Of a DNA stretch of 64,000 bases, positions 1,751 through 53,653 are shown one piece after another. Each line of letters begins with the position of its first letter. Within the stretch, counting starts at the first letter, position 1. The stretch comes from a virus, in the IMG/VR virus record IMGVR_UViG_3300009159_000032; one strand, given 5' to 3'. A model generated the notes under the pieces. It ran no database searches and was not told where the DNA came from. It worked only from the letters and a program-made list of their open reading frames with translations. A program made the translations under genes and the position numbers.

Positions 1751-1825
1751 CTGGCGTTAGTATAACGGATAATACAGCGGCCTTCTAAGCCGTCAATAGA
1801 GGTTCGATTCCTCTACGCCGGACCA
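1751..1825 (+). tRNA. tRNA-Arg(TCT)
   Basis: Acceptor CTGGCGT/ACGCCGG, anticodon loop CT-TCT-AA, T arm AGAGG-TTCGATT-CCTCT, encoded CCA. Confidence 0.93.
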
Positions 1826-1847: not shown

Positions 1848-2018
1848 ATGGCATATATGAAACCGGGTCCTAACTACAAAATGAGCAAAAACGTTAAGAG
1901 AGAATTGGCAACTATTGTCGATCCTCAAGAAAGAGGTATTCAAAAACGAATTATGATTCAGGCAGAATTATTTGGAAATGTACGCCATAAAGAAAAGCGT
2001 CCAAAAGATAACGATTAA
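1848..2018 (+). CDS. Small hypothetical phage protein (56 aa, not in ORF track)
   Basis: RBS AAAGGA; translates MAYMKPGPNYKMSK...RPKDND*. Confidence 0.7.
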   Translation: MAYMKPGPNYKMSKNVKRELATIVDPQERGIQKRIMIQAELFGNVRHKEKRPKDND

Positions 2019-3214
2019 AAATTAAAGAAGTATAGGTGTTTTACTTCTTCGAGGTCTGTGAAAGCAGACCTTTCGCTTTGTTGTTTTATTTTTTCTAATG
2101 CACCAGGCCTAAACACTACATTATCGTAGGCAAAGTACATGTAGATATCGTTATTAAACTCAACAGTATGCGGGGTATAACTTCCGTTGAACACTAATAT
2201 ACTTGATCGATGTTCTGATTGTATTTCTATTGGTATTCGATTGTCTATATATTCTGCTACAAGATTAGACGAACCATAATAATTTTCTAAGTTTGGATCG
2301 GTATCTGCTATCGGTTTCCAAAATTTATAGGTAACTGGTTTATCATTAAATGTAAGCCTAACTGCTATTGTAAATGTTAATCTTTTATCATTAGATAATT
2401 GATGTGTATGTGTAAGTATCTGAGATCCCAATGAACTATGACCAAAGATAACAGCAGAATGAGTACATTCTGCTATATATTGTTCCGCTAAAAACTCAAC
2501 ATCTTCTGTAAGTTTTCCTAACCTTTTATAAACAGACGAGGCATCATACATTGCTACTTGGATAGCATGTTCAAAAGAATAAGACAGATGTTTACAAGGA
2601 AAATTTTTAACCTTATTATTTTTATCACTGGTATTTCGTAAAATACCACTCGTCCGTTCTTTCATAAGCCTAGATCCAGAAAGAGTTTCTGGATATTTTT
2701 TAGGATCGTCAAAATCTCCGCTACCTTGATAAATTCCTCTAAATATTCCTAATGGAATAATATTCTTTATAATATAATCTTTGTAATAATCAATTAGTGT
2801 CCAATCAATTATTTTGTTCTTTTTAGGATAGTCAGTATAGGGAAACTCACTAACATAATTGTCATCAGAAGTTAGCCGCTGATATTTGATATTATTTTTT
2901 ATTTTATTTTGATCAAAACAATCAATTAAATTTTTATATTGTTCAACATGAGAATCTGCCCAATCGAGGTAACACTGCTTATTCCACCAGATAACTCTAA
3001 TTTCTTGACATAGTTTATCTTGAGATTCGTGGTATTCAATATTAACAATTCCTGGTTCCATTAACAAAAGAGAATACAGGTAAATGATATCTTTTATATT
3101 GTACGCAGTATCAGGAGTTTGAGTTCTAGTTACATTATGTACAATGTAAAAATTTTGATTTATCTTTTTTTCATCTGTCCAAAAATTAGAAAAATTGTCA
3201 GTAATTAATATCAT
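2015..3214 (-). CDS. Putative fusion of an N-terminal ABM-like barrel and a C-terminal 2OG-Fe(II)/cupin-like oxygenase
   Basis: ILTHTH...LTFTIAVRL and SILVFNGSYTPHTV resemble a jelly-roll metal site; N-terminal EIRVIWWNKQCYLDW resembles the neighbouring ABM-like ORFs. Confidence 0.45.
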   Translation of the reverse strand: MILITDNFSNFWTDEKKINQNFYIVHNVTRTQTPDTAYNIKDIIYLYSLLLMEPGIVNIEYHESQDKLCQEIRVIWWNKQCYLDWADSHVEQYKNLIDCFDQNKIKNNIKYQRLTSDDNYVSEFPYTDYPKKNKIIDWTLIDYYKDYIIKNIIPLGIFRGIYQGSGDFDDPKKYPETLSGSRLMKERTSGILRNTSDKNNKVKNFPCKHLSYSFEHAIQVAMYDASSVYKRLGKLTEDVEFLAEQYIAECTHSAVIFGHSSLGSQILTHTHQLSNDKRLTFTIAVRLTFNDKPVTYKFWKPIADTDPNLENYYGSSNLVAEYIDNRIPIEIQSEHRSSILVFNGSYTPHTVEFNNDIYMYFAYDNVVFRPGALEKIKQQSERSAFTDLEEVKHLYFFNF

Positions 3215-3576
3215 CTATGTACTTGAATTAGTCCAGGAGGTTCAACATATTGATCAAATGGCAATGCACCCGGCATACGAGAATTTTCAATTTCAGAATA
3301 AGTCTTTACAGTTACTTCGTTTACTTCCAAGTATTCTAAAAGAGATGCCAGTAACTCGTCTCTTTTTTCTCCAAATTCTGCATACCAATTTTCATATTCT
3401 GCATTATCTGCAAAAAACCAATGACCTTCAAAACGAGTGTAGTCTTGCGTAGCATAAAATAAAGTGTCGATATTAGATAAACAATCAACGTCTAACGCAT
3501 GTACATCAACTGAACTATATAAAATTCCAATAACTTCAAAACCTGGTTTTTCAAAAGTCATAATTATTTTTTTCAT
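3211..3576 (-). CDS. Small acidic protein, possible dimeric alpha+beta (ABM-like) barrel
   Basis: 121 aa; FEGHWFFADNAEYENW pattern; preceded by a perfect TATAAATA on the minus strand. Confidence 0.4.
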   Translation of the reverse strand: MKKIIMTFEKPGFEVIGILYSSVDVHALDVDCLSNIDTLFYATQDYTRFEGHWFFADNAEYENWYAEFGEKRDELLASLLEYLEVNEVTVKTYSEIENSRMPGALPFDQYVEPPGLIQVHR

Positions 3577-3593
3577 AGTGTAATCCTTTTTAA

Positions 3594-3622
3594 TATTTAT
3601 AGGGTAAAAGATTATGTAAATA
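3594..3622. promoter_or_regulatory. Divergent T4-like late promoters
   Basis: TATAAATA on the minus strand (3594-3601) and TAAATA on the plus strand (3617-3622), between divergent genes. Confidence 0.6.
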
Positions 3623-3627
3623 AGATC

Positions 3628-4230
3628 ATGATAGAAAATAGACCACTAAACATTAACGATTGTGAGCAACTGATAAAGTTAATAAAATCTCGTCCAGAAA
3701 CATTTAATGGATACACGGACGATCAATTAAAACATCGTGTTGAATATGACATAGAAAAACTTATTCCTCTATATTTAATTGATCCTTTGTATTACATACC
3801 GGGCATTTTTGTTGACGGTAAATTATTTGGAGCTCTAATTTGTAAAGAATTTTCCAATGCTCCTTGTTGGTCTTGGGGATATTGGATTAGTGACGGGCAT
3901 CATGATAAGATGTACACTGTAGAAGGAGCCAAGGCCTTTAGAGCTTGGGATCAGATCTTATTTGACGAAATGGAAATTAACCGAAAACTTAATCGATTCT
4001 TTATTGTTTACGAAAATCGAAACGATAATACATTAAAATCTACAGGGTTTGGTGAAAGACTGTTTACATGGATGGGACGCCAGGGATACAGGGTTTCAAA
4101 ATATCAGTTCATAACAGATTGCGAAATTGAACCTAACACCGAACCAAAGTACGAATATCAAAAACAACTACTGACAAACAGAACATGGCCTATTCCTTTG
4201 TCAGTTAGAATGGGAATCTTAGTCAAATGA
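3628..4230 (+). CDS. Putative GNAT-fold acyltransferase
   Basis: N-terminal RPLNINDCEQL and central GIFVDGKLFGAL beta-hairpin are typical of GNAT topology. Confidence 0.45.
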   Translation: MIENRPLNINDCEQLIKLIKSRPETFNGYTDDQLKHRVEYDIEKLIPLYLIDPLYYIPGIFVDGKLFGALICKEFSNAPCWSWGYWISDGHHDKMYTVEGAKAFRAWDQILFDEMEINRKLNRFFIVYENRNDNTLKSTGFGERLFTWMGRQGYRVSKYQFITDCEIEPNTEPKYEYQKQLLTNRTWPIPLSVRMGILVK

Positions 4231-4557
4231 GAATGGTTCAGTCTCTTCACCTGTGTCACCGTCAGTAATAAAAAATCTAATACCATGTCGATGACACTCT
4301 AATTCAAAACGTGTCCAAAACATTTTTCTATAAGGGTGTTGTTGCGACTTTTCAAAAGCTTCTTTACTTTCCCACTCTGAAGTAACTTCCCAACGTTCGT
4401 CATCAAAATGGTCGTCTACTACGTTAATAAGTCCGGAAGTAGGAATATTATATCGTCTCATCATTTGACTGAATGAAAGATTCTGTGTAGTTACTACTTT
4501 AAATCTTTTCATTTTTGGTCCTTCTGTGCAGACTAATCGATATTTTCTGATATACAT
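4219..4557 (-). CDS. ABM-like (antibiotic biosynthesis monooxygenase-fold) protein
   Basis: VTSEWESKEAFEKSQQHP matches the ABM motif; start moved to the ATG at 4557, which has an AAAGGA RBS. Confidence 0.55.
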   Translation of the reverse strand: MYIRKYRLVCTEGPKMKRFKVVTTQNLSFSQMMRRYNIPTSGLINVVDDHFDDERWEVTSEWESKEAFEKSQQHPYRKMFWTRFELECHRHGIRFFITDGDTGEETEPFSFD

Positions 4558-4632
4558 TGTATGTTGTCCTTTTTTAGTAATTATCGTTTTTGTTAATAGT
4601 AAATAAAATATCTGAAACAAAGGAAATTCAAA

Positions 4633-4977
4633 ATGTACGCAAGAGTATCAACAACTATAGTAACTGATCCAACTATCGATAGACCCGGTATGAAACTTAG
4701 ATCCTGGGCAGATTCTTTATATTATAATCCCATGTACTCTACTATTAGATCTCAAATGGCTGACCGTCCAGGATTTATGTACAATTCACATTCATTAGTT
4801 GAATACAAAGATACAGCAAAACTGGTCAGTCAAGTAGTATTTGATACAAAAGAAAATTTTGATGTTTATGTTTCCGACCCGCAGACTATTAACTTATGGG
4901 AACTAATTGAATCATTAAGTAAAGAAAGCGGTGTACTTATACAGTTTATTGATACCGATAAATTTTTAAATTTCTAA
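4633..4977 (+). CDS. ABM-like small protein
   Basis: VSQVVFDTKENFDVYVSDP resembles the ABM motif; AAGGA RBS; TAAATA at 4600-4605. Confidence 0.45.
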   Translation: MYARVSTTIVTDPTIDRPGMKLRSWADSLYYNPMYSTIRSQMADRPGFMYNSHSLVEYKDTAKLVSQVVFDTKENFDVYVSDPQTINLWELIESLSKESGVLIQFIDTDKFLNF

Positions 4978-5766
4978 TTTATAATTTAATTGATCTTTGT
5001 ATTTTGCAATACTTCGATCGATTAGATTTTCTAATTTAGAAATACTAAACGTTCCATTAACAACTAGCAGTTGTTTTCGTAAACCATAATAATCACTGCC
5101 GTGCATCTGAGACCCATTTGACCAACAGAAACAATTTGTATCTGTAGGCAAGTCTATGTAATTTTGATCATAGTGCTCTATATCAGCAACAAATAATGTT
5201 GGTTGAGGGTTCTCGTCATGTATCATCATTCTAAATTCTGTAGGAGCGTCCCAAAATTTAGTTTGATCAGTATGCAGACCAACAGGTACTACACTTTCCC
5301 AGATGTACATATGATCAATAAAGTGAAAAGGAAAATACTGTTTAACATGTTCAACCATCGGTTCGAAAACAGGATGCGGATAATATTTGTGTGTCCATAT
5401 TCCTAAATTTTCTGCTTCAAACTTTTCCGGGTTGGATGTGTGTGGATATAACCCTTTAAATGTAGGCCTATACCAATGGCTTTCCTTCCCTAACGGATGA
5501 GCTTCTTTATCCCAAGGTTCGGCTGAATCTGGTTTTGTTCGTATAATATCAATAGCTTCTCGATCAAAGATTTCTAAGAATTTATTATAGTCTTCAAATT
5601 CAAATTTTGGAATATCTAACGGTAACCATCTAATTGGTCGATATTTTTTGCTTAGTCTTTTTAGTTCGGTTACATACCATTCAGGTAGATGACTAGGATA
5701 AGTTTCACCTCTAAAAGAATTATTGGCTACTTTTATTCTCATTTTTAGTTCTTCAATAGGTAACAT
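4966..5766 (-). CDS. 2OG-Fe(II) oxygenase, Asp/Asn beta-hydroxylase-like
   Basis: HxD (LHTD) and distal H (MHGSDY) facial triad; paralogue of 5774-6598. Confidence 0.65.
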   Translation of the reverse strand: MLPIEELKMRIKVANNSFRGETYPSHLPEWYVTELKRLSKKYRPIRWLPLDIPKFEFEDYNKFLEIFDREAIDIIRTKPDSAEPWDKEAHPLGKESHWYRPTFKGLYPHTSNPEKFEAENLGIWTHKYYPHPVFEPMVEHVKQYFPFHFIDHMYIWESVVPVGLHTDQTKFWDAPTEFRMMIHDENPQPTLFVADIEHYDQNYIDLPTDTNCFCWSNGSQMHGSDYYGLRKQLLVVNGTFSISKLENLIDRSIAKYKDQLNYKLEI

Positions 5767-5773
5767 AATGTCC

Positions 5774-6598
5774 TTACATTTCTAATTTATAATTCAATTT
5801 ATCTCTATACTTTTCAATACTTCTATCCATAAGTATTTCATATTTTTTAGTATTTACAACAGCATTAATGCAGATCAACTGTTTACGTTTTCCATAAAAA
5901 TCACTTCCGTGTATCTGAGATCCGTTTGACCAAGCAAATGTGTTGGTATCAGGTGGCGGATCAATGTAATGAATATCTCCATGATCAACATCGCAAACAT
6001 ATAATGTGGGCTGTGTATTTTCATCATTTAACATTATACGGAACATAGTTGGCATGTCCCAAAAATAATCAGCATCTCTATGCGGATAAACTTCTCGAAT
6101 GCTTTCCCAAATATATAAATGACTAACCATTTCGAACGGAAGTGTATCTTGTATCTGTTCTATGATTGGTACAAACAAAGGATGCTCATACAACTTTGCA
6201 GACCATTCCATACATTTTGTTTCTAAAAAATTTTCTCTGCTATATGTGTAAAAGTCTAATCCTTTAAATTGAGGATTATACCAATTACTAGCCTTACCTA
6301 ACGGATGAGCTTCTTTAGGCCATGGTTCGGCAGCATCTACACCAGTTCGTAAAACATCTATTTTTTCTCTGTCCCAGATATCCATAAATTCTTCCATATC
6401 AATTTCAAATTTTGGAACATCTAAAGGAATCCATCGAATAGGACGGTATTTTTTATTCATTCTATGAATTTCTGTAAGATACTCGTTGGAAAAATTATAC
6501 TGAGGGTCGAAATGGTGCCAAGCTGTTCTTTGTTGATTAGCCCAACTATTTCGACCAACGGTTTTTCTAACAAGATCAACAACACTTTTATTAGGCAT
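5774..6598 (-). CDS. 2OG-Fe(II) oxygenase, Asp/Asn beta-hydroxylase-like
   Basis: PHRD and IHGSDF; shares KKYRPIRW and AEPWxKEAHPLGK with the adjacent paralogue. Confidence 0.65.
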   Translation of the reverse strand: MPNKSVVDLVRKTVGRNSWANQQRTAWHHFDPQYNFSNEYLTEIHRMNKKYRPIRWIPLDVPKFEIDMEEFMDIWDREKIDVLRTGVDAAEPWPKEAHPLGKASNWYNPQFKGLDFYTYSRENFLETKCMEWSAKLYEHPLFVPIIEQIQDTLPFEMVSHLYIWESIREVYPHRDADYFWDMPTMFRIMLNDENTQPTLYVCDVDHGDIHYIDPPPDTNTFAWSNGSQIHGSDFYGKRKQLICINAVVNTKKYEILMDRSIEKYRDKLNYKLEM

Positions 6599-6599
6599 T

Positions 6600-7775
6600 T
6601 TATCCTTCCAATGACTCTATGATAGCAATAGATGTTCGGCCGCCGAATCCAAAACTTGCTTTCATAAAAATCTTTCCTTTTAAATCAGTCTTTTTAGTAA
6701 TTAGTCTAGGATCATCACTAAGCGGATTGTCTAAAGAAAAATTAGGTTGTAGATAACCATGCTTAACTGCTTCTATTCCGTAGGCTGCTTCAATTAAACC
6801 ACAGGCACTCATAGTATGCCCTATGTAACCTTTAAACCCAACGATAGGGATCTCGATACCTTCAAAAGCACGTTGAAACACATCTAATTCAATGTCGTCA
6901 CCTACTGGTGTACTTGTAGCATGAGCATTAAAAAATGCAATATCACTCGGAGTTAAGTTAGCTTGTTTTAATGCTTGATTAATAATCTTTAATTGATTTT
7001 CACAAGTTCGATCATGTGCAGTCATACTTGTTAATTTAGCACCGCTAGCAATTGATCTTAATTTAGCCTTTGGTTTAAGATTATATTTTATCAGTGTTTC
7101 TTCATCGCAGATAAACCAAATTGTGCCACCTTCACCTTGTAAGAAGCCATCTCGATTTTTGTCAAACGGTTTTGATGTGCCACCGTTATGATTAGACAAG
7201 GCACTTGAACATTGCCAGTAATATTGCAGTGTAGGATGCAACGAATGATCAATGGCTCCTACTAGTGCAGAACTGGTCTGCCCAGTTTGTATCAACATCG
7301 ATGCAAAATGCAGATTATACATACTACTAGAGCAGGCAGCATTTACACTGGCATTCATATTTTCTGATTTTGTTTTTCCAGAAATCAATGCCGACAACAG
7401 ATCGTGGTTGTTAGAAAATAACCTACTAGGGCTATACCGATTTTTATGATCTTCCATAGACTTGTAAAAGTCTTCTCTAATAGCAGAGTTAATTGCAAAC
7501 GATCCAACACTAACTACACTGTCTTTGAATATATCGTTATCATAGGCTTCAAGATATTCGTTAGTAATGTTTACTGCTGTCTTATATGACAAATAACCAT
7601 TTTCCATATAGTCGGCCTGAAACCCTTTAGTACTCAAAATATAAGGATGGTCTTCAACATTATATCTAGTTATTGTCTGCGGGCCTTTTGACAAGGGCAT
7701 ATTTTCGTAGTTAGATGCTACATTTTTTCCAAGAGAATCATGCACACGATAGTCGACTATGTAAATGTCTTTCAT
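6600..7775 (-). CDS. fabF: Beta-ketoacyl-ACP synthase (FabF/FabB-type elongating ketosynthase)
   Basis: Cys-His-His triad motifs NAACSSS, NAHATST and KGYIGHT; also PFDKNRDGF..GEG and SFGFGG. Confidence 0.9.
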   Translation of the reverse strand: MKDIYIVDYRVHDSLGKNVASNYENMPLSKGPQTITRYNVEDHPYILSTKGFQADYMENGYLSYKTAVNITNEYLEAYDNDIFKDSVVSVGSFAINSAIREDFYKSMEDHKNRYSPSRLFSNNHDLLSALISGKTKSENMNASVNAACSSSMYNLHFASMLIQTGQTSSALVGAIDHSLHPTLQYYWQCSSALSNHNGGTSKPFDKNRDGFLQGEGGTIWFICDEETLIKYNLKPKAKLRSIASGAKLTSMTAHDRTCENQLKIINQALKQANLTPSDIAFFNAHATSTPVGDDIELDVFQRAFEGIEIPIVGFKGYIGHTMSACGLIEAAYGIEAVKHGYLQPNFSLDNPLSDDPRLITKKTDLKGKIFMKASFGFGGRTSIAIIESLEG

Positions 7776-8149
7776 GGGGCAGGTGTAGTTGATGGTGATG
7801 TTTTTTGTTTTGGTGGTTCTTGGCTATCTGTAATATATCCAATCAAGTCTTTCCATGCCAGTAGCTTTGGAATTTCTTGATCATCAATAACTACGCCAAA
7901 TTCTTCTTCAACTTGAATTACCAGTTCAAGAATATCGATGCTGTCAATTTCAAGATTTTTCTTTTCTAATTCATAAAGTTCAGGTGGAAGATTTTGAATT
8001 TCATTGTTATTAACAATTTTCAAATCTTTAATATTCATCTCTGGAGGAAGCGGGTATTCTAACTCTAATTTGAGATAAACGTTGATCATTTCAATAAATC
8101 TACGCTCAACTGCTTCTTCAGAACGGGGTGTCCAATTTTCGGTACTCAT
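7772..8149 (-). CDS. acpP: Acyl carrier protein 1 (extended)
   Basis: IDSIDILELVIQVEEEFGVVI phosphopantetheine Ser motif; longer than a typical ACP; GGAG RBS. Confidence 0.85.
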   Translation of the reverse strand: MSTENWTPRSEEAVERRFIEMINVYLKLELEYPLPPEMNIKDLKIVNNNEIQNLPPELYELEKKNLEIDSIDILELVIQVEEEFGVVIDDQEIPKLLAWKDLIGYITDSQEPPKQKTSPSTTPAP

Positions 8150-8166
8150 AGTATCTCCTATATAAT

Positions 8167-8198
8167 TATTTAAATAAATGCTGTGTTATTAACAGCAA
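8167..8198 (-). terminator. Terminator after fabZ followed by a TAAATA late promoter for acp-fabF
   Basis: Minus strand reads GCTGT-TAATAAC-ACAGC-ATTTATTT, then TAAATA (8172-8167). Confidence 0.55.
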
Positions 8199-8206
8199 AT
8201 ATGATC

Positions 8207-8671
8207 TTAAACTCCGCCAAGTGCTTTTAGTTTGCCCTCAGTAACAACTAGTCCATCTACTTCAATTCGAGCATCAAACTCAAAAATATTTCTAGCATTT
8301 CTTGTTAGTGTAGAGTGAATTATGAGTTGCTCTCCAGGTAACACCACTTTTTTAAATCTAACTTGATCTGCTCCTACAAACAGTATTCCGGCGCCCTTGG
8401 CCATATACTTAAAAAAGTCTTCTGAAGGCATTACGTCTTCAACATATTTAAATGCCAAAATAGTACTGGCCTGTGCCATTGCTTCGACCATCATAACTCC
8501 GGGCATGATATGGTTACCTGGAAAATGTCCTTGAACATATGGTTCATTGATGGTGAAATTCTTAACTGCTGTTATGGTTTTTTCATCGTAGTCCAATACA
8601 CGGTCGACCATTAGAAAGGGGTAACGATGCGGAAGTATTGATAAAATGTCTTGTGATGATAATGGTTTCAT
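8207..8671 (-). CDS. fabZ: 3-hydroxyacyl-ACP dehydratase
   Basis: LPHRYPFLMVD and GHFPGNHIMPGVMMVEAMAQ (His/Glu dyad). Confidence 0.93.
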   Translation of the reverse strand: MKPLSSQDILSILPHRYPFLMVDRVLDYDEKTITAVKNFTINEPYVQGHFPGNHIMPGVMMVEAMAQASTILAFKYVEDVMPSEDFFKYMAKGAGILFVGADQVRFKKVVLPGEQLIIHSTLTRNARNIFEFDARIEVDGLVVTEGKLKALGGV

Positions 8672-9228
8672 TCTAGTCCTAACATGTGATATGGCGGATT
8701 ATAAAAATACATAGAGAAAGCTAATCTCGGATTCGAAGGCGACAACAATTTATTAAATTTTATTCGATGGGGAATGTCCGGATTGAATATAATTGGTCTA
8801 GTTAGTTCATAACAATCGATCAATGTGGCATCTTTTTTGTTGTATTTCAAATACCAATACGGAACTCCTGCATCTGCACTTTTAATTTTTTCCAAATTCT
8901 TTATATCATAAAATTCTGTTACGGCTGTCCCCACAGTATTGAGTAATGGAAAATTCATTCTTGGGTACGGAGGGCCAGAATCAATATGTATACCAGATGT
9001 AGCAAAATATCCTAATATCCAAAATTCAGCAGGTTCTAGACAGATACTATCAAACCACGTACCCATTTCGGGCACAGCCGTTAATAAATTGCCTAATTCA
9101 TCATCCTTGATAGGACCTCGCCAATTGGCATGGGATGATAGCCAGTTTGTTGTTGCTAGATATTCTAAAGATTTTTTAATTATAATTTCTTGATCTGGAC
9201 AATCTAAATATATAAAGTTTTTTGCCAT
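8668..9228 (-). CDS. 2OG-Fe(II)/cupin-like oxygenase (tandem copy A)
   Basis: IHIDSG and PHRI metal ligands; near-identical N-terminus to 9281-9841. Confidence 0.55.
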   Translation of the reverse strand: MAKNFIYLDCPDQEIIIKKSLEYLATTNWLSSHANWRGPIKDDELGNLLTAVPEMGTWFDSICLEPAEFWILGYFATSGIHIDSGPPYPRMNFPLLNTVGTAVTEFYDIKNLEKIKSADAGVPYWYLKYNKKDATLIDCYELTRPIIFNPDIPHRIKFNKLLSPSNPRLAFSMYFYNPPYHMLGLE

Positions 9229-9895
9229 AATTATATTATAAATACCTCGGCAGTAGAAGTCAAGCCTGATGATAAAGTTTTTATTTAAGTCCTAACATAT
9301 GATACGGTGGATTCCAAAATGCTATGCTAAACATAAGCCTAGGATTTTCTGCCGATAAAGGTTTATTAAATCTTACTCGATGCGGTATTTCGGGATTAAA
9401 AATTATAGGTTTAGTTAATTCGTAATGATCAAGTAATATAGCATCATTATTATCAAATTTTAATTCCCAATAATCAACTCCGTTTTCCTTAGCAGGAATT
9501 TTTTCTATTTTTTTTATTTTAAAAAATTCAGTTACTGCTGTTCCTATATTATTACTTAACGGAAAATTCATTCTTGGATATGATGATCCAGAATCAATAT
9601 GTATCTGAGACGAATCAAAAAATCCTAATATCCAAAAATGAGCAGGTTTTAAATTAAGATCTATAAGCCATTTATCTAATTCAGGAACAGCTTCCAAAAG
9701 TCTTTTTAAATATCGACCACGAATAGGGCCACGCCAAGTACCTGTAGTTGTTAACCAGTTTGTTGTTGCTAGATATTCTAAAGATTTTTTAATTATAATT
9801 TCTTGATCTGGACAATCTAAATATATAAAGTTTTTTGCCATAATTATATTATAGATGCTGTTGCTGAAGAAGTCAAGCCTGATGATAAAGTTTTT
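8670..9895. repeat. Direct tandem duplication, ~613 bp period
   Basis: 9141-9282 closely matches 9754-9895, including a relic of the 3' end of the 9844-10773 gene. Confidence 0.85.
9281..9841 (-). CDS. 2OG-Fe(II)/cupin-like oxygenase (tandem copy B)
   Basis: IHIDSG and PHRV; paralogue of 8668-9228. Confidence 0.55.
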   Translation of the reverse strand: MAKNFIYLDCPDQEIIIKKSLEYLATTNWLTTTGTWRGPIRGRYLKRLLEAVPELDKWLIDLNLKPAHFWILGFFDSSQIHIDSGSSYPRMNFPLSNNIGTAVTEFFKIKKIEKIPAKENGVDYWELKFDNNDAILLDHYELTKPIIFNPEIPHRVRFNKPLSAENPRLMFSIAFWNPPYHMLGLK

Positions 9896-10773
9896 ACAAC
9901 CTTATGATACTGATGATCAGAGGTACCTAGCCATTGATCTTTTCTACTGATCACAGTCTGTATATCTGGATGTTGAAATATTGTACTAGTCTCTACATGC
10001 TCATACCCAGTTTGTTTTATTCGCTGTTCTAGATTAAATCCTGTACCTCTATTAAAAACTTCTACCTTGGTGGAGTTTGTACCCAGCCGGCCTGGAAAAC
10101 CATGATTGGCTAATTTTTCAATAGCAGGGTCGACAAGGAAGGCTAACATCTGTTCGGGAGTGTAACTTAGAAAAAATGGTGTACCATCAAGGCCGTGTTT
10201 CTTCCAGTAGGTTAATTGGCTGTGACTAAATTCTTCCTCGTCAAGATACCACAAATTATCTTTAGAGTTTAATTTTAAATGAGGAGGATCATTACCTGTT
10301 ATCACAGTACCGTCAAGCTGACTGGCTAACCACATGTTGCAAGGAATTTGAAAAGCAGAACATTTAATTGACTCGGCAATTTCTAATAACTGTCCGGACT
10401 CAACAAACTTGTCGTAATCTAAATCAATAACTGTAGGAGTAATATTTTTAGCTTCACAGAATTTGAAAGCATATTGTGTTTCGTGATGATTATATTGTGT
10501 ACGCATGATCACAACTTCCACAGTCATGCCAAACTTCAAAAGTATACTAAGCACATATTCACTATCAAGCCCGCCGCTATAGCACAGGTGAAGTTTGCCT
10601 CGTTTGCGTTCCCATAACATTTCAGCAGCGATTAAAGTTTCTTCGTAGTAACTTCTTACAGGCCTACGTGGGGGATCAATTTCCACAGTCCATGTAGGAC
10701 CATTGCCCGAACTTCTAAGATAATTGTTATCTACTAATTGCATTGAGTTATTTTTTAAATTGGTAAGATGCAT
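9844..10773 (-). CDS. PP-loop ATPase (asparagine-synthase C-terminal / adenine nucleotide alpha-hydrolase-like)
   Basis: LCYSGGLDSE PP-loop; no glutaminase domain; likely start at ATG 10743, downstream of a TAAATA motif. Confidence 0.65.
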   Translation of the reverse strand: MHLTNLKNNSMQLVDNNYLRSSGNGPTWTVEIDPPRRPVRSYYEETLIAAEMLWERKRGKLHLCYSGGLDSEYVLSILLKFGMTVEVVIMRTQYNHHETQYAFKFCEAKNITPTVIDLDYDKFVESGQLLEIAESIKCSAFQIPCNMWLASQLDGTVITGNDPPHLKLNSKDNLWYLDEEEFSHSQLTYWKKHGLDGTPFFLSYTPEQMLAFLVDPAIEKLANHGFPGRLGTNSTKVEVFNRGTGFNLEQRIKQTGYEHVETSTIFQHPDIQTVISRKDQWLGTSDHQYHKVVKTLSSGLTSSATASII

Positions 10774-10786
10774 ATTTACCAGGATC

Positions 10787-10814
10787 TTGACAGGCTAAAA
10801 TAAAAAAGTATAAT
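10787..10814 (+). promoter_or_regulatory. sigma70-type promoter for the acpS operon
   Basis: TTGACA-N16-TATAAT. Confidence 0.75.
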
Positions 10815-10820
10815 TACAGT

Positions 10821-11201
10821 ATGATAAAAGGTACCGGTATAGACATTGTCGATCTTAGAAGATTTCAATCTATGGATTCAAATAGATTAGAACGCCTTGC
10901 CAAAAGAATTCTTACAGAAAAAGAATTAACTGAATATCGTGCTCAGGTTGATGCAAGAAAATTTGTATTCCTTGCCAAACACTGGAGTGTGAAAGAATCA
11001 GTAGCCAAAGCATATGGCACAGGTATTTCTGGCATAGTTGTTTGGAAAAATATAGAACTTTCAAAATCTTTATTTGGACGACCACAAATAACTTTTTTAA
11101 ATTTTTTAGGAAAAATGGCCAAAGATTTAGTCTGCCACGTTAGTATAAGTCACGACGGAGACTACTTGATTTCATCCGCTGTGTTAGAATATGCATGTTG
11201 A
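10821..11201 (+). CDS. acpS: Holo-ACP synthase (4'-phosphopantetheinyl transferase)
   Basis: GTGIDIV, WSVKESVAKAYGTG and SISHDGDY motifs. Confidence 0.93.
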   Translation: MIKGTGIDIVDLRRFQSMDSNRLERLAKRILTEKELTEYRAQVDARKFVFLAKHWSVKESVAKAYGTGISGIVVWKNIELSKSLFGRPQITFLNFLGKMAKDLVCHVSISHDGDYLISSAVLEYAC

Positions 11202-11739
11202 AATTTGGGTGCAGGGTACTGACTCTAAATTAGATTCTTTATTTGAAGAACTACGTATTAAACAGCATAGCGATACTTCACATCCCCTCTATAGAAACTA
11301 TGCGGCAGAGGCATTTGTGGAATGTTCAGCTCTATCAATAACCTTTGAAGATAACAAACCTATTGTTGTAGGTAGCATACTGACTCGAAATTGTTGGCCA
11401 AAAAATACCTACAGGATATTAAACAGATTTTGGAAAGTACATGAGCACAGGCTTCCACATCTAGATCGCAATCACGGAATGGCTATATTCAGCAAAACTG
11501 TTGAAGCTCATGTACACTATGCAGAAAAAGAACTAAATGCAGATCTAGTCTTTATCAGCAGACAGCACGATAATTGGCAAGCATTTACTAAACGGATTCT
11601 AATACAAAAAATTGGCATTGAATTTAAATACAATGATTACAAATATCTTACCTGCGGAAACGAACATGATGATACTTGTTGGCAAAAGATTGTCTATCGC
11701 GGCCGTGAAGATTTGTTAACTGATTGGAAAAAGAGATGA
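11191..11739 (+). CDS. Putative GNAT-fold acyltransferase
   Basis: GNAT-like strand order; ILNRFW resembles the SRF motif of acyl-ACP-dependent synthases (LuxI/FeeM-like). Confidence 0.45.
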   Translation: MHVEIWVQGTDSKLDSLFEELRIKQHSDTSHPLYRNYAAEAFVECSALSITFEDNKPIVVGSILTRNCWPKNTYRILNRFWKVHEHRLPHLDRNHGMAIFSKTVEAHVHYAEKELNADLVFISRQHDNWQAFTKRILIQKIGIEFKYNDYKYLTCGNEHDDTCWQKIVYRGREDLLTDWKKR

Positions 11740-12515
11740 AAGAAATTATCAAAGGTATGTTTAGAATGTACAGCATTGTACCTGTATGGTTTGTGGGACT
11801 CTATGCTATCTATACCGTAGTAATTGGAACTGCACCTAGTTGGTGGTGGATAGGAACCTTCATTGGCTATGTGTGCATTATGATGCTAGGTGTTAGTGCA
11901 GGATATCATCGCTTGCTTAGTCATCGAGGCTTCGAAGTACATCCTTGGGTAAAACGGTTGATGTTATGGTTTGCTGCCCTTTCATGTCAAGGTAGTCCTA
12001 TTTTTTGGGTAACAATACACCGAGGGTATCATCATCGATATGCTGATCAAGAACGTGACCCGCATCGACCCGCAGACGGATTTTGGCATAGCTATATGTT
12101 ATGGATGTTTAAGATCAAAGACGGAGATCACAATACCAAATATGTTGTAGACCTATTACGTGATCCTATCTGTATTTTCTTTCACAAATACTATAATTAT
12201 ATTATTTGGGTCAGTCATGTTGCTATTGCCTTTATCAGTGTTGACCTTTGGTTATATACTGTGATGTTACCTGCATTTTTAACCATTCATAGTTTTGCCT
12301 TACAGACCAGTCTCAATCATTCGCAAGTTTACGGATATAAAAATGCAGAAACTAACGACCATGGTGTTAATGTAATTTGGCTATTTCCTTTGATACTGGG
12401 AGAAGCATGGCACAACAATCACCACTCGGATGCTAAGAATCCAAATTATGGCAGTCGTCGTTGGTGGGAGTTAGATCCCACGTATTGGTTAATTAAATTA
12501 ATTAGAACCGGTTAA
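11736..12515 (+). CDS. Membrane fatty-acyl desaturase (delta-9-like)
   Basis: His boxes HRLLSH, HRGYHH and HNNHH, plus WWELDP; transmembrane segments. Confidence 0.92.
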   Translation: MKEIIKGMFRMYSIVPVWFVGLYAIYTVVIGTAPSWWWIGTFIGYVCIMMLGVSAGYHRLLSHRGFEVHPWVKRLMLWFAALSCQGSPIFWVTIHRGYHHRYADQERDPHRPADGFWHSYMLWMFKIKDGDHNTKYVVDLLRDPICIFFHKYYNYIIWVSHVAIAFISVDLWLYTVMLPAFLTIHSFALQTSLNHSQVYGYKNAETNDHGVNVIWLFPLILGEAWHNNHHSDAKNPNYGSRRWWELDPTYWLIKLIRTG

Positions 12516-12749
12516 CAGCAGAATTCCGTTATAAAGATCACGTACAGTACGAGCATTTCTAGTATCTGGATGATCCATGTCAATTTCAATTTTGAATTCG
12601 TCTTCGCAAGCCACTATCATTTCTGTAAGGCTTAGACTGTCCAGTCTAAGATCTTCATAAAGGTTTAAATCTAAATGTACATTGGATTCAGATTCTTTGT
12701 ATACATTAACAATTTGTAGCAGTCTTTGTTCGATATTTGTCATAGTCAT
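12498..12749 (-). CDS. acpP: Acyl carrier protein 2
   Basis: LRLDSLSLTEMIVACEDEFKIEI; 83 aa, acidic. Confidence 0.88.
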   Translation of the reverse strand: MTMTNIEQRLLQIVNVYKESESNVHLDLNLYEDLRLDSLSLTEMIVACEDEFKIEIDMDHPDTRNARTVRDLYNGILLLTGSN

Positions 12750-12788: not shown

Positions 12789-12817
12789 TTGACAATTATC
12801 GATTACCGTGTTACAAT
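12789..12817 (+). promoter_or_regulatory. sigma70-type promoter for the tRNA-like RNA
   Basis: TTGACA-N17-TACAAT. Confidence 0.75.
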
Positions 12818-13674: not shown

Positions 13675-13724
13675 CTTTCAGTTTTAATAGTGCGTATAAT
13701 AGCTGTACTTAAATAAAATCATGC

Positions 13725-13798: not shown

Positions 13799-13811
13799 AC
13801 TTAAAGATACT

Positions 13812-14666: not shown

Positions 14667-14667
14667 T

Positions 14668-52494: not shown

Positions 52495-52862
52495 TGACTA
52501 ATCCATTTCGCGATCAAGAAAAATTTATGCAGGCCTGTGACCAAACGGTCGGTCAATCTAATGCAGAACAGTTTAAATTATATGTTAAACTAATGGCAGA
52601 AGAATCGCAAGAGTTAGCACAGGCCATGCAGAGCACAGACGAATTAGAAACCTTAGATGCTCTTATAGATATTTTAGTGGTTACTATTGGTGCTATCCAT
52701 AGTGCCGGATTTGATGCAGAAGGTGCATGGAAAGAAGTTATGCGAACAAATTTTGCAAAAATTGATTCAGACACAGGTAAAGTTCGTAAGCGTGAAGACG
52801 GCAAAGTTTTAAAACCGCTAGGGTGGACACCACCTAATTTAACTCCGTTCTTAAGAAAATGA
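52494..52862 (+). CDS. MazG-like / PRA-PH nucleotide pyrophosphohydrolase
   Basis: EESQEL...ETLDALIDI and KVRKREDGKVLKP.GW.PP. Confidence 0.8.
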   Translation: MTNPFRDQEKFMQACDQTVGQSNAEQFKLYVKLMAEESQELAQAMQSTDELETLDALIDILVVTIGAIHSAGFDAEGAWKEVMRTNFAKIDSDTGKVRKREDGKVLKPLGWTPPNLTPFLRK

Positions 52863-53653
52863 CATTAGATTTAAAATTTAAAAATAACTTTTGGTTAGTT
52901 TTTTTACCTCTTCATATCTTAGGGTTCTGCGGTCTATTCTATCTAAATGATTACTGGCAATGGTTATTAATCTTTTGGTTTACTTTTGGTGTGCTAGGTA
53001 ATGGTGTTGCAGGACATCGTTATTTTGCACATGGTCAATTTGAAACATGGACTCCTGTAAAATGGGCACTGGGTTTTCTAACATCGCTTGGAGGATTTGG
53101 TCCTGCAACTGATTGGAGAATACAACACAAGATGCATCATCTTAGAGCAGACAAAGAAGCTGATCCCCATTCTCCACATTTTAAAAATCCTTTCCAAGTT
53201 TTCTACGGATGGTATATATTTCAACACCAAGGTGAAGGATATCTTACTGATAGATTTGTACGCAAGATGGCAGTGAGTCAATTACGAGATAAATTTTACA
53301 GTTTCTTTGATAGAAATCATTATCGCATTATCTTTATTTTTTGTGCTATACTAGGTATAATTAATTTTCATTTGTTATTAATCTATGCTCTTGCATACTG
53401 CATCGACTTTTTTAGACTAGGCTCAGTAAACTATTGGTGTCATCGCAGTGGATACCGTACCTATGAAACTAATGATTACAGTAGGAACAATGTTTGGATA
53501 GGTTGGTTAGGTATGGGATTTGGTTGGCATAATACACACCACGCACATCCTGGTAAACTTATCCTAACTGAACGTTGGTGGGAAATTGACGTTGAAGGTT
53601 ATATCGGTTGGTTACTATCTAAGAACAAATATGGGACACAAAAAACAAATTGA
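52859..53653 (+). CDS. Second membrane fatty-acyl desaturase (delta-9-like)
   Basis: HRYFAH, HKMHH and HNTHH boxes; WWEID. Confidence 0.9.
   Translation: MTLDLKFKNNFWLVFLPLHILGFCGLFYLNDYWQWLLIFWFTFGVLGNGVAGHRYFAHGQFETWTPVKWALGFLTSLGGFGPATDWRIQHKMHHLRADKEADPHSPHFKNPFQVFYGWYIFQHQGEGYLTDRFVRKMAVSQLRDKFYSFFDRNHYRIIFIFCAILGIINFHLLLIYALAYCIDFFRLGSVNYWCHRSGYRTYETNDYSRNNVWIGWLGMGFGWHNTHHAHPGKLILTERWWEIDVEGYIGWLLSKNKYGTQKTN

What the first reader, a model, noticed from the sequence alone, without database searches (positions are those of the whole stretch)
2015..12749. Phage-encoded type II fatty-acid/polyketide-like biosynthetic cluster with heavy tailoring
Seen in sequence: a CHH-triad ketosynthase, two ACPs, FabZ, the ACP-activating AcpS, a desaturase, two GNAT-like proteins, a PP-loop ATPase, about five 2OG-Fe(II)-like oxygenases and three to four ABM-like barrels. 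They fill one contiguous island bounded by tRNA-Arg and a tRNA-like gene. Gene orientation flips repeatedly here, unlike the almost uniformly plus-strand remainder. Established knowledge: ACP, KS, DH and PPTase form the core of carrier-dependent acyl assembly lines. Isolated acyl genes occur in phages, but I do not know of a characterised phage pathway this complete. No FabG, FabI or FabD is visible in the window, so these would be borrowed from the host, as with the rhizobial acpXL-fabZXL-fabFXL lipid A very-long-chain acyl cluster. Inference: the phage builds a dedicated hydroxylated, unsaturated acyl chain and transfers it onto a target such as virion proteins or glycans, host lipid A, or a diffusible acyl-amide signal.
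Basis: partly seen in the sequence, partly recalled or inferred. Interest (0 to 1): 0.92.

Follow-up and report, generated by a model that had tools for sequence, protein, structure and literature searches.

The report
Jumbo-phage acyl-carrier lipid-building gene island
An uncultured giant phage carries about 17 intact genes for building and oxidising a fatty chain on its own carrier proteins; related phages keep the same set, no cellular genome searched had a close copy of its key enzyme, and the product is unknown.

Summary
The core observation holds. Window 2015-12749 encodes:
- a ketosynthase with an invariant Cys-His-His triad;
- FabZ and AcpS, both above NCBIfam cut-offs;
- two acyl carrier proteins with invariant DS(L/I) serines;
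- a membrane desaturase with three His boxes;
- an SGGLDS PP-loop enzyme;
- a GNAT-fold protein, shown by a fold model.

The 266/274-aa pair has a 2OG/Fe(II)-oxygenase fold. The 186-aa pair, the 399-aa C-terminus, the second GNAT and the "ABM barrels" rest on motifs or weak hits only.

The DNA is phage. It has tail fibres, an endolysin and a clamp loader 58% identical to that of jumbo phage PA5oct, and relatives lie on 350-390 kb contigs.

Ten independent viral loci (KS 54-94% identical) keep the core together with the tailoring genes. The KS forms its own clade on the longest branch of the tree. It is at most 33% identical to the cellular relatives recovered from 185,579 species genomes.

Fuller relatives add a Rieske protein, a B12-type radical SAM enzyme, an SDR and extra desaturases. 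The window keeps one of those desaturases 40 kb away.

Most likely this is a dedicated carrier-bound acyl pathway, helped by the host and off-loaded as an amide. The product is unknown.

The scan noted analogous phage modules before on other DNA. I found no published description beyond single-gene lists.

The parts
1751..1825 (+). tRNA-Arg(TCT), the left boundary of the island
   Evidence: ARAGORN; Rfam tRNA 61.7 bits
2015..3214 (-). 399-aa two-domain protein. The N-terminal domain is related to the 121-aa protein. The C-terminal domain carries invariant HxH...PH and is a possible metal centre of unknown fold.
   Evidence: No Pfam, PHROG, NCBIfam or PDB hit. hhalign of the N-terminus against the 121-aa family gives 89%, E 2e-6. 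The C-terminus occurs as stand-alone proteins of about 240 aa. One relative is fused to an SDR (P0279). dN/dS 0.14.
3211..3576 (-). 121-aa small protein, homologous to the N-terminal domain of the 399-aa protein
   Evidence: Present in 4 of 10 loci.
3628..4230 (+). 200-aa protein, tentatively GNAT-like
   Evidence: Pfam Acetyltransf_3 E 0.006, below the cut-off. 2-3 of 9 orthologues give weak GNAT hits. Present in 10 of 10 loci. No detectable homology to the 182-aa GNAT.
4219..4557 (-). ABM-like small protein of about 112 aa. The ORF runs to 4620, but orthologues start at M22.
   Evidence: Pfam ABM E 0.003, below the cut-off. Orthologue starts. Present in 9 of 10 loci. dN/dS 0.018.
4633..4977 (+). 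114-aa small protein, a distant paralogue of the ABM-like protein
   Evidence: hhalign against the 133/112-aa family gives 72%, E 3.4e-5. Present in 8 of 10 loci.
4966..5766 (-). 266-aa protein with a 2OG/Fe(II)-oxygenase fold, paralogue of the 274-aa protein
   Evidence: 50% identical to the 274-aa protein and keeps HTD...H. Same family as the modelled protein.
5774..6598 (-). 274-aa protein with a 2OG/Fe(II)-oxygenase (double-stranded beta-helix) fold. The nearest annotated relatives are Asp/Asn beta-hydroxylase-type (PF05118).
   Evidence: AF2 pLDDT 94.8. Foldseek probability 1.0 to proline 3-hydroxylase, ABH2, PHD2 and AspH. VIA Z 9.2, with all 50 top rows 2OG oxygenases. Atlas TM 0.58 to a viral PF05118 cluster. 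Present in 10 of 10 loci.
6600..7775 (-). Divergent elongating beta-ketoacyl synthase with a Cys-His-His triad
7772..8149 (-). ACP1, a 125-aa carrier protein with a conserved N-terminal extension, translationally coupled to the KS
   Evidence: The 4-base overlap with the KS start can be read from the coordinates.
8207..8671 (-). FabZ, 3-hydroxyacyl-ACP dehydratase
8668..9228 (-). 186-aa protein, copy a, with invariant HxD...H...R. A candidate small Fe/2OG-type oxygenase; the fold is not verified.
   Evidence: dN/dS 0.19.
9281..9841 (-). 186-aa protein, copy b, a tandem duplicate 67% identical to copy a
   Evidence: Duplicated promoter-like sites scoring 11 of 12 lie upstream of each copy.
9844..10773 (-). 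PP-loop (SGGLDS) ATP pyrophosphatase of an unnamed subfamily. Orthologues start at M11, position 10743.
   Evidence: Present in 9 of 10 loci.
10821..11201 (+). AcpS, holo-ACP synthase (phosphopantetheinyl transferase)
   Evidence: A 12 of 12 sigma-70 consensus lies at 10787-10814.
11191..11739 (+). 182-aa GNAT-fold acyltransferase from a large virus-only family
11724..12515 (+). Membrane fatty-acid desaturase 1 with three His boxes
12498..12749 (-). ACP2, an 83-aa carrier protein, convergent with desaturase 1 and overlapping it by 18 bases
52859..53653 (+). Desaturase 2, outside the reported span. It is the orthologue of the in-island tandem desaturases of related phages.
   Evidence: phrog_35201. 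61-63% identical to L002, L004, L005, L142 and L147 in-island copies; His boxes HRYFAH/HKMHH/HNTHH.

Best explanation
The island is a working, phage-specific pathway of uncultured jumbo myoviruses that builds an acyl chain on carrier proteins. Proposed mechanism, with steps marked as shown or inferred:

1. Phage AcpS puts the phosphopantetheine arm on the two phage carrier proteins. The gene identities are shown; the pairing is inferred.
2. The divergent Cys-His-His ketosynthase and FabZ, co-transcribed with ACP1, extend and dehydrate an acyl chain on ACP1. Malonyl transfer, keto-reduction and enoyl-reduction are borrowed from the host in this phage, whereas fuller relatives carry their own SDR. 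This step is inferred.
3. Membrane desaturases introduce double bonds. One is always paired with ACP2, and a second is encoded at 52859. The soluble Fe/2OG-fold oxygenases (266/274 aa, probably also the 186-aa pair) hydroxylate or otherwise oxidise the chain. The folds are shown; the substrates are inferred.
4. The chain leaves the carrier through an amide-forming step. The candidates are the virus-only GNAT-fold protein that always sits between AcpS and the desaturase, and the PP-loop adenylating enzyme. This step is inferred.

The product would be an unsaturated, oxygenated, probably N-linked fatty compound of unknown identity and target.
For: - Core identities and catalytic residues.
- Phage origin: tail fibres, endolysin and clamp loader; IMG/VR relatives and contigs of 351-387 kb.
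- Co-conservation over 10 independent loci with KS 54-94% identical: KS, ACP1, 2OG-270 and the 200-aa protein in 10 of 10; PP-loop, FabZ, AcpS, GNAT182, desaturase and the ABM-like protein in 9 of 10.
- All genes are under purifying selection, dN/dS 0.02-0.25.
- The KS is not a borrowed housekeeping gene. It scores 150 bits against the 494-bit FabF cut-off. It is at most 33% identical to the cellular relatives recovered from 185,579 species genomes. It forms its own clade with support 100 on the longest branch.
- A private AcpS plus two private ACPs argue for an acyl pool kept apart from the host's.
- Operon structure shows overlapping stops and starts along PP-loop, 186, 186, FabZ, ACP1, KS, 274, 266 and along AcpS, GNAT182, desaturase.
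- One relative fuses the 399-aa protein to an SDR, which ties that unknown protein to acyl chemistry.
- The 2OG-fold pair is structurally nearest to PF05118 enzymes. From my own knowledge, PF05118 includes the lipid acyl-chain hydroxylases LpxO and OlsC.
- The GNAT182 model ties with the acyl-ACP-using enzymes LasI (Z 10.3) and FeeM (Z 9.8) as well as with ordinary acetyltransferases. Its beta4-alpha3 loop reads R-Q-H-D-N-W, without the glycines of the usual CoA-pyrophosphate loop.
Against: - No product, substrate or expression data exist.
- Several 'tailoring' assignments are fold-level or motif-level only.
- The 2OG-270 family also occurs in a phage contig without KS or ACP (L146), so it need not act on carrier-bound chains.
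- The PP-loop gene is missing from L005 and FabZ from L144, so neither is indispensable.
- No thioesterase, acyl-AMP ligase or malonyl transferase was found, so both loading and release are unexplained.
- The structural ties of GNAT182 do not separate acyl-ACP users from acetyl-CoA users.
- FabZ is ordinary.
Confidence: 0.55

Rival explanations
1. These are auxiliary metabolic genes that only retune the host's own membrane lipids. On this reading the FabZ/KS pair acts like the FabA/FabB or FabZ/FabF pairs that divert type II fatty-acid synthesis towards unsaturated chains, and the desaturases raise unsaturation of existing lipids. No new compound is made; the phage keeps membranes fluid or supplies lipid during a large burst.
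For: - FabZ is a normal FabZ above the equivalog cut-off.
- Single lipid desaturases are known cyanophage auxiliary genes (PMC5776448).
- fabF plus a stearoyl-CoA desaturase are listed for freshwater pelagimyophages (PMC7029224).
- FabZ/FabF pairs are discussed for unsaturated fatty-acid synthesis in Clostridium (PMC2700279, title and abstract seen).
- The window lacks FabG, FabI and FabD, so it must plug into host synthesis.
Against: - Simple retuning would not need a private AcpS, two divergent private ACPs, two GNAT-type proteins, a PP-loop enzyme and two to four oxygenases, all co-conserved.
- The KS sits on the longest branch, far from housekeeping FabF.
- Relatives add a B12 radical SAM enzyme, a Rieske protein and up to six desaturases, which looks like specialised chemistry.
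Confidence: 0.22
2. The island is mixed. The acyl core (AcpS, ACPs, KS, FabZ, desaturases) is real, but the oxygenase-fold proteins, the PP-loop enzyme, the GNAT-type proteins and the small proteins act on other substrates such as tRNA, DNA or virion proteins. On this reading they merely share a hypervariable, low-GC, tRNA-flanked island.
For: - PP-loop, 2OG/AlkB-like, GNAT and radical SAM folds are all common in nucleic-acid modification (own knowledge).
- The PDB top hits of the 274-aa model include AlkB-family enzymes.
- The island lies between tRNA genes, next to a TRM5/TYW2-like methyltransferase and a TROVE-like RNA-binding protein.
- A 2OG-270 homologue occurs without KS or ACP in L146.
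- Island GC is 31-36% against 36-47% elsewhere.
Against: - These genes are interleaved with the acyl genes and translationally coupled to them in single operons.
- They keep that linkage across loci whose KS is only 54-65% identical, even where gene order is reshuffled (L144, L147).
- The fusion of the 399-aa protein to an SDR links an unknown member to acyl-type chemistry.
Confidence: 0.15
3. The stretch is bacterial chromosome, or a chimeric or mis-binned contig, and the cluster is an ordinary cellular fatty-acid or polyketide locus.
For: Many 'phage' database records that match KS and FabZ are really host contigs, which shows how such errors arise.
Against: - The window carries tail fibres, an endolysin, a clamp loader and virion proteins.
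- The same island with the same flanks is found in independent assemblies.
- No genome hit recovered from 185,579 species has a KS above 33% identity.
- The 2OG-270, GNAT182 and 399-aa families are found only in metagenomic or viral records.
Confidence: 0.03

Closest known systems
Lipid genes listed for freshwater pelagimyophages (group PMP-D): fabF, stearoyl-CoA desaturase and a 2OG-Fe dioxygenase (Zaragoza-Solas et al. 2020, PMC7029224)
   Same: Uncultured T4-like aquatic phages carry a KS plus a membrane desaturase plus 2OG-type proteins. This is the only published mention I found of a phage fabF together with a desaturase.
   Different: That paper only lists the genes as 'unique genes'. 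It describes no ACPs, AcpS, FabZ, PP-loop, GNATs or conserved operon. I did not test whether those genes are orthologues of the ones here. The one isolate hit, Pelagibacter phage Mosig, is a desaturase at 30% identity.
Thiotemplated desaturation cassettes: JamABC (terminal alkyne) and the bacterial polyyne cay/pgn clusters (PMC9828172)
   Same: A dedicated ACP is genetically paired with membrane desaturases that work on the carrier-bound chain, with several desaturases acting together. The ACP2-desaturase pairing is conserved here, and relatives have 3-6 desaturases.
   Different: The defining fatty acyl-AMP ligase, thioesterase and rubredoxin were not found in the island. Here a KS and FabZ build or extend the chain, and GNAT and PP-loop proteins replace the thioesterase as candidate release enzymes.
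Rhizobial acpXL-fabZXL-fabF2XL-fabF1XL very-long-chain lipid A acyl cluster
   Same: A private ACP, a FabZ paralogue and a KS are clustered and depend on housekeeping FabG, FabI and FabD.
   Different: There is one KS here rather than two, and no LpxXL-type acyltransferase. The island adds AcpS, desaturases, oxygenases, GNATs and a PP-loop enzyme, and it is viral. Relatedness was not tested.
Asp/Asn beta-hydroxylase family PF05118, which includes the lipid acyl-chain 2-hydroxylases LpxO and OlsC (functions from own knowledge)
   Same: This is the nearest annotated structural neighbour of the 274-aa model (TM 0.58 viral and 0.52 bacterial PF05118 clusters; AspH Z 7.3). The HxD/E...H pattern is present in the window copies.
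   Different: There is no sequence-level Pfam hit. Other 2OG subfamilies (AlkB, prolyl hydroxylases) score as high or higher in the PDB. One paralogue clade in relatives has Tyr in place of the distal His.
Cyanophage lipid desaturases (Roitman et al. 2018, PMC5776448)
   Same: A phage-encoded membrane fatty-acid desaturase serving as an infection-time lipid gene.
   Different: Those are single auxiliary genes. The paper mentions no ACP, ketoacyl synthase or FabZ. The window's desaturase found no cyanophage match by tblastn.
Isolated ACP genes of jumbo phages (Eneladusvirus; PMC7760394)
   Same: A jumbo phage with its own ACP. That paper states that ACPs are rarely found in phage genomes.
   Different: That is a lone ACP without PPTase, KS, dehydratase or desaturase.

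Membership tests
Elongating beta-ketoacyl-ACP synthase (FabF/FabB type, thiolase fold) | Both KS Pfam domains above the gathering score | tested here: met
   PF00109 63.8 bits and PF02801 73.2 bits, each against a cut-off of 20.8
Elongating beta-ketoacyl-ACP synthase (FabF/FabB type, thiolase fold) | Cys-His-His catalytic triad and the conserved Lys | tested here: met
   C148, H285, H320 and K315 are invariant in 5 orthologues. They align with the active-site blocks of PDB KS domains.
Housekeeping FabF (NCBIfam TIGR03150 equivalog) | Score above the curated equivalog cut-off and grouping with cellular FabF | tested here: not met
   150.3 bits against a cut-off of 493.75. At most 33% identical to the recovered matches in 185,579 species genomes. 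Separate clade with SH-aLRT 100 and a stem of 1.38 substitutions per site.
FabZ 3-hydroxyacyl-ACP dehydratase | Score above the NCBIfam equivalog cut-off; His/Glu active-site motif | tested here: met
   NF000582 155.9 bits against 113 (TIGR01750 falls just below, 151.7 against 155.15). The motif HFPGNHIMPGV...VEAMAQ is read.
AcpS-type phosphopantetheinyl transferase | Score above the TIGR00516/TIGR00556 cut-offs | tested here: met
   85.5 bits against 59.8, and 89.5 against 45.35
Acyl carrier protein | PP-binding domain and a conserved Asp-Ser-Leu/Ile attachment serine | tested here: met
   ACP2 32.1 bits against 20.8, with D37-S38-L39 invariant in 9 sequences. ACP1 is exactly at the cut-off, 20.8, with D69-S70-I71 invariant in 9 sequences. 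Both fall below the NCBIfam AcpP equivalog cut-offs.
Membrane fatty-acid desaturase (PF00487) | Pfam score above cut-off and three histidine boxes | tested here: met
   52.7 bits against 29.7. Boxes HRLLSH, HRGYHH and HNNHH in desaturase 1; HRYFAH, HKMHH and HNTHH in desaturase 2. Regiospecificity and substrate (lipid, CoA or ACP) were not tested.
2OG/Fe(II)-dependent oxygenase superfamily (266/274-aa pair) | Double-stranded beta-helix fold | tested here: met
   AF2 pLDDT 94.8. Foldseek probability 1.0 with 39 hits at E of 1e-3 or better. All 50 listed VIA rows are oxygenases of this superfamily, best Z 9.2.
2OG/Fe(II)-dependent oxygenase superfamily (266/274-aa pair) | HxD/E...H iron triad and a basic residue that binds 2OG | tested here: inconclusive
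   The His of HxD/E is conserved in at least 90% of 76 sequences. Both window copies have the distal His, but a paralogue clade in relatives has Tyr there. The 2OG-binding residue was not mapped, because model coordinates could not be inspected.
2OG/Fe(II)-dependent oxygenase superfamily (186-aa pair; 399-aa C-terminus) | Fold, or a significant profile match to the superfamily | tested here: inconclusive
   Only motifs support it: H81-x-D83...H154...R168 invariant in 10 sequences, and HxH...PH invariant. No Pfam or PDB hits. hhalign to the 270-aa family gives under 1%.
GNAT acyltransferase superfamily (182-aa protein) | GNAT fold | tested here: met
   pLDDT 92.6. Foldseek gives 182 hits at E of 1e-3 or better, all listed ones GNATs. 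VIA Z 11.3.
GNAT acyltransferase superfamily (182-aa protein) | Canonical acetyl-CoA pyrophosphate loop Q/R-x-x-G-x-G/A after strand beta4 | tested here: not met
   The loop after beta4 (residues 119-124) reads R-Q-H-D-N-W and has no glycines. S123, R124 and W129 are conserved in the family. This was read from sequence only.
Acyl-ACP-dependent GNATs (LuxI-type AHL synthases; FeeM-type N-acyl amino acid synthases) | A specific structural or sequence match standing above that to generic acetyltransferases | tested here: inconclusive
   LasI Z 10.3, FeeM 9.8, RpaI 9.8 and TofI 9.5 tie with generic GNATs at Z 9-11.3. There are no Pfam or NCBIfam hits.
GNAT superfamily (200-aa protein) | Pfam or fold match | tested here: inconclusive
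   Acetyltransf_3 17.7 bits against a cut-off of 25.4. Weak GNAT hits in 2-3 of 9 orthologues. No PDB profile hit. Not modelled.
PP-loop ATP pyrophosphatase superfamily | SGGxDS PP-loop motif | tested here: met
   S56-G57-G58-x-D60-S61 invariant in 7 orthologues. The motif region aligns to NadE.
Named PP-loop families (QueC, NadE, LarE) | Score above the family cut-off | tested here: not met
   QueC 20.2 bits against 150.3, NadE 16.8 against 63.65, LarE 16.1 against 150
Bacterial polyyne/alkyne thiotemplated cassette (cay/pgn, JamABC) | Fatty acyl-AMP ligase, ACP, three desaturases, thioesterase and rubredoxin (PMC9828172) | tested here: not met
   An ACP and desaturases are present. No ligase, thioesterase or rubredoxin family was hit by any island ORF. 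The window has two desaturases.
ABM (antibiotic biosynthesis monooxygenase-like) small barrels | Pfam ABM above cut-off, or the fold | tested here: inconclusive
   The 133-aa protein scores 18.1 bits against 23.1. The 114-aa family links to it by hhalign at 72%. The 121-aa family and the 399-aa N-terminus link to each other but not to ABM. Not modelled.

The most novel reading that the evidence does not exclude
A clade of giant aquatic phages encodes its own thiotemplated natural-product-like pathway. It has a private PPTase, two carrier proteins, a virus-specific ketosynthase, desaturases and several enzyme families seen so far only in viruses or metagenomes (the 270-aa oxygenase, the 182-aa GNAT, the 399-aa protein). 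On this reading it makes a new amide-linked, oxygenated, unsaturated lipid that acts as a signal, toxin or envelope/virion modifier during infection. That would be the first biosynthetic gene cluster of this type described for a bacteriophage.
Probability: 0.3. Interest if true: 0.9.

Novelty: new variant of a known kind. Interest (0 to 1): 0.75.

Why it matters
Phage auxiliary lipid genes are known as single genes: desaturases, and an occasional ACP or fabF. Here about 17 genes form a conserved, selected module with its own carrier activation.

Its key enzymes have no close cellular counterpart among the genomes searched. Several of its families (at least 100 to 350 sequence clusters each) carry no annotation at all.

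If it makes a distinct compound, giant phages would be a source of new lipid or natural-product chemistry. They would also offer a new way of manipulating host envelopes or communities.

If it only remodels host membranes, it is still the most complete phage fatty-acid toolkit I could find described. Either way it assigns folds to two large uncharacterised viral protein families and gives a defined gene set for expression.

Tried and rejected
SEARCHES THAT FOUND NOTHING
- No whole genome is held for this window.
- megablast of the island and of 40-60 kb against GenBank phages found nothing.
- tblastn of the 274-aa and PP-loop proteins against GenBank phages found nothing.
- KS and FabZ 'phage' hits there are host-contig records at 20-47% identity.
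- Most island ORFs have no PHROG family.
- Profile searches of the PDB with the 270-aa, 399-aa, 182-aa, 186-aa, stand-alone C-domain and 200-aa families gave nothing meaningful.
- Pfam on family members gave nothing.
- The ESM Atlas feature search for the 399-aa protein gave no usable hit.
- Scan notes searched by sequence show no look-alikes of the KS, GNAT182 or PP-loop protein in other windows.

COMPARISONS THAT SHOWED NO RELATION
- hhalign found no relation between the 186-aa and 270-aa families, between the 399-aa family and either of them, or between the two GNAT-type families.

JOBS WITHOUT A RESULT
- Complex prediction of GNAT182 with ACP2 returned 'no answer' (score 0.02). It counts neither for nor against binding.
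- Promoter-like sites are not enriched over shuffles (61 against 54), so I make no early/late promoter claim.

IDEAS CONSIDERED AND SET ASIDE
- A queuosine or 7-deazaguanine DNA-modification cluster: only a weak QueC-like PP-loop is present.
- Aryl-polyene membership: ApeP-like hits are weaker than FabA/FabZ, and no Ape-specific parts were found.
- Sphingolipid synthesis: no PLP-dependent serine palmitoyltransferase hit among the island ORFs scanned.
- A ladderane-type cluster: the B12 radical SAM enzyme of relatives hits TIGR04072 at only 76 bits against a cut-off of 360, and it is absent from the window.

Full report
WHAT IS THERE

Window 2015-12749 holds 17 intact ORFs on alternating strands between tRNA-Arg (1751-1825) and a methyltransferase gene. 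Almost everything from 12.9 kb to 64 kb runs on the plus strand. Island GC is 31-36%, against 36-47% elsewhere.

Family searches confirm the acyl core.
- The ketosynthase at 6600-7775(-) has both KS domains. C148, H285, H320 and K315 are invariant in five orthologues.
- FabZ at 8207-8671(-) scores above the NCBIfam equivalog cut-off, and AcpS at 10821-11201(+) is above its cut-off.
- ACP2 at 12498-12749(-) and the longer ACP1 at 7772-8149(-) have invariant Asp-Ser-Leu/Ile attachment sites.
- The membrane desaturase at 11724-12515(+) has three histidine boxes.
- The protein at 9844-10773(-) carries an invariant SGGxDS PP-loop but belongs to no named PP-loop family.

THE UNKNOWN ORFS

Eight ORFs had no Pfam hit, so I gathered relatives and modelled two of them.

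The 266/274-aa paralogues belong to a family of at least 103 sequence clusters, all metagenomic and unannotated. The model (pLDDT 94.8) is a double-stranded beta-helix. Foldseek and the exhaustive aligner return only 2OG/Fe(II) oxygenases, best Z 9.2. In the ESM Atlas the nearest annotated clusters are Asp/Asn beta-hydroxylase-type, PF05118 (TM 0.58). Both window copies keep HxD...H. A second paralogue clade in relatives has Tyr at the distal position.

The 182-aa protein next to AcpS belongs to a family of at least 350 clusters seen only in viral or metagenomic data. It models as a GNAT (pLDDT 92.6, Z 11.3). The acyl-ACP-using enzymes LasI and FeeM tie with ordinary acetyltransferases. The usual glycine-containing CoA loop is absent (read).

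- The two 186-aa proteins are a tandem duplicate (67% identical). They belong to a family of about 180 aa with invariant HxD...H...R, but no profile or database link.
- The 399-aa protein has two domains. Its N-terminus is homologous to the neighbouring 121-aa protein (hhalign 89%). Its C-terminus also exists as stand-alone proteins of about 240 aa with invariant HxH...PH.
- The 133-aa protein has a sub-threshold ABM hit and is distantly related to the 114-aa protein.
- The 200-aa 'GNAT' has only weak hits.
- The 'tRNA-like gene' at 12823-12924 folds like a cloverleaf but is called by neither ARAGORN nor Rfam.

IS IT PHAGE, AND IS IT REAL?

The window encodes tail-fibre proteins, a virion protein, an endolysin and a clamp loader 58% identical to that of the Pseudomonas jumbo phage PA5oct. 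It also encodes a baseplate-associated protease about 35% identical to cyanomyovirus proteins.

Orthologous islands occur on IMG/VR and metagenome contigs of up to 387 kb. The same flanking genes bracket the island in the window, L001 and L142, so the contig is not chimeric.

No GenBank phage carries the 274-aa or PP-loop proteins. Against L001, every island gene has dN/dS of 0.02-0.25 where dS could be estimated.

CO-CONSERVATION AND ORIGIN

I compared ten independent loci whose KS is 54-94% identical to the window's.
- KS, ACP1, the 270-aa oxygenase and the 200-aa protein are present in all ten.
- PP-loop, FabZ, AcpS, GNAT182, a desaturase and the ABM-like protein are present in nine.
- ACP2 and the 114-aa protein are present in eight.
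- The remaining genes are variable.

In a tree with 77 best cellular matches and 28 other IMG/VR ketosynthases, the island KS forms one clade (SH-aLRT 100). It sits on the longest internal branch, 1.38 against a median of 0.08 substitutions per site. It scores 150 bits against the 494-bit FabF cut-off. No genome hit recovered from 185,579 species exceeds 33% identity. FabZ, by contrast, is ordinary.

THE WINDOW HOLDS A REDUCED VERSION

Fuller islands (L142, L145, L002, L005) add several genes:
- a Rieske protein upstream of the PP-loop gene;
- a B12-binding radical SAM enzyme between the KS and the oxygenases;
- an SDR beside the 399-aa gene, fused to it in P0279;
- a UbiB-like kinase;
- two to five further desaturases.

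None of the Rieske, radical SAM, SDR or kinase genes has a homologue in the window. Nor do 1,732 ORFs from 80 bacterial fabF neighbourhoods match anything in the island beyond KS, FabZ and AcpS.

One of the 'extra' desaturases does exist in the window, 40 kb away at 52859-53653, and is 61-63% identical to the in-island copies.

The GNAT182-desaturase-ACP2 block is only about 51% identical to L001, while its neighbours are 90-98% identical. That block therefore appears to move as a cassette.

HOW IT MOST LIKELY WORKS

Shown: the gene identities and folds above, their operon coupling, their co-conservation and their viral specificity.

Inferred:
- AcpS activates both ACPs.
- KS and FabZ extend and dehydrate a chain on ACP1 with host FabD, FabG and FabI.
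- Desaturases, one always paired with ACP2, and the Fe/2OG-fold proteins introduce double bonds and hydroxyls.
- GNAT182 and/or the PP-loop adenylating enzyme release the chain as an amide.

I put about 0.8 on 'a functional carrier-dependent acyl module'. I put about 0.55 on the fuller statement that it is a dedicated pathway with carrier-bound tailoring and amide-type release.

The main rival is plain remodelling of host membrane lipids (0.22). It is supported by the ordinary FabZ and by published single-gene precedents (PMC5776448, PMC7029224). It does not explain the private PPTase, the two ACPs and the co-conserved transferases and oxygenases.

A mixed-island reading, with the tailoring genes acting on RNA, DNA or protein, keeps 0.15. 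The reasons are the AlkB-like structural hits, the tRNA/TROVE surroundings and one oxygenase homologue found outside any KS cluster (L146).

COMPARISON WITH WHAT IS KNOWN

The closest published statement is a one-line listing of fabF, a stearoyl-CoA desaturase and a 2OG-Fe dioxygenase in freshwater pelagimyophages (PMC7029224).

Mechanistically, the ACP-desaturase pairing resembles the thiotemplated alkyne and polyyne cassettes (PMC9828172). Their defining acyl-AMP ligase, thioesterase and rubredoxin were not found, so this is an analogy and not membership.

The acpXL analogy shares ACP, FabZ and KS but lacks the second KS and the LpxXL transferase.

A jumbo-phage paper states that ACPs are rarely found in phages (PMC7760394).

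Earlier follow-ups of this scan described analogous phage modules of ACP, KS, desaturase, PP-loop and GNAT genes on other DNA. Sequence look-ups found no look-alikes of this window's KS, GNAT182 or PP-loop protein among them.

VERDICT

I rate it a new variant of a known kind: carrier-protein-dependent acyl synthesis, here viral, self-activating and built partly from virus-only families. The product is unknown. Interest 0.75.

Noticed in passing
window 11191-12749: The GNAT182-desaturase-ACP2 block is only about 51% identical (aa) to L001, while flanking genes are 90-98% identical. Closer copies sit in L142 (72-78%) and L147. It looks like a cassette exchanged between phages by recombination.
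   Followed up: partly
window 52859-53653: A second membrane desaturase lies 40 kb outside the island. It is orthologous (61-63%) to the tandem in-island desaturases of related phages. The neighbouring metallophosphoesterase (54318-55142) lies right beside the island in L002, L004, L087 and L147, so the island's position differs between genomes.
   Followed up: partly
window 12823-12924: A tRNA-shaped RNA (7-bp acceptor stem, GGTTCGAAGCC T-arm, CCA end) sits behind an 11 of 12 promoter-like site with a TG extension (12789-12817). ARAGORN and Rfam do not call it. The fold z-score is only -1.86.
   Followed up: partly
window 8668-9841: The 186-aa gene is tandemly duplicated (67% aa identity), and each copy is preceded by the same 11 of 12 sigma-70-like site. 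L001 and L142 have a single copy.
   Followed up: partly
window 10774-10820: The 47-bp divergent gap between the PP-loop operon and the AcpS operon contains a perfect 12 of 12 TTGACA-16-TATAAT site (10787-10814) facing AcpS.
   Followed up: no
L146:8816-10813: A homologue of the 270-aa oxygenase sits beside a radical SAM gene in a phage contig that has no KS or ACP nearby. The oxygenase family is therefore not confined to the acyl island.
   Followed up: no
L144:1-12000: A 351-kb contig carries a rearranged island with six desaturase genes, KS, two ACPs and AcpS, but no FabZ.
   Followed up: no
L142:7655-9139 and orthologues in L002, L005, L145: The radical SAM enzyme of the fuller islands is of the B12-binding class. 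Its best sub-threshold hits are PhpK-type methyltransferases and the 'lipid biosynthesis B12/radical SAM' family TIGR04072, which hints at C-methylation of the chain in those phages.
   Followed up: partly
window 254-1660 and 12940-31637: The island is flanked by a TROVE/Ro-like RNA-binding protein (phrog_850) on one side.
   Followed up: no
window 4219-4620: The ORF of the ABM-like protein is probably over-extended. All orthologues begin at the Met that corresponds to residue 22 (position 4557).
   Followed up: partly
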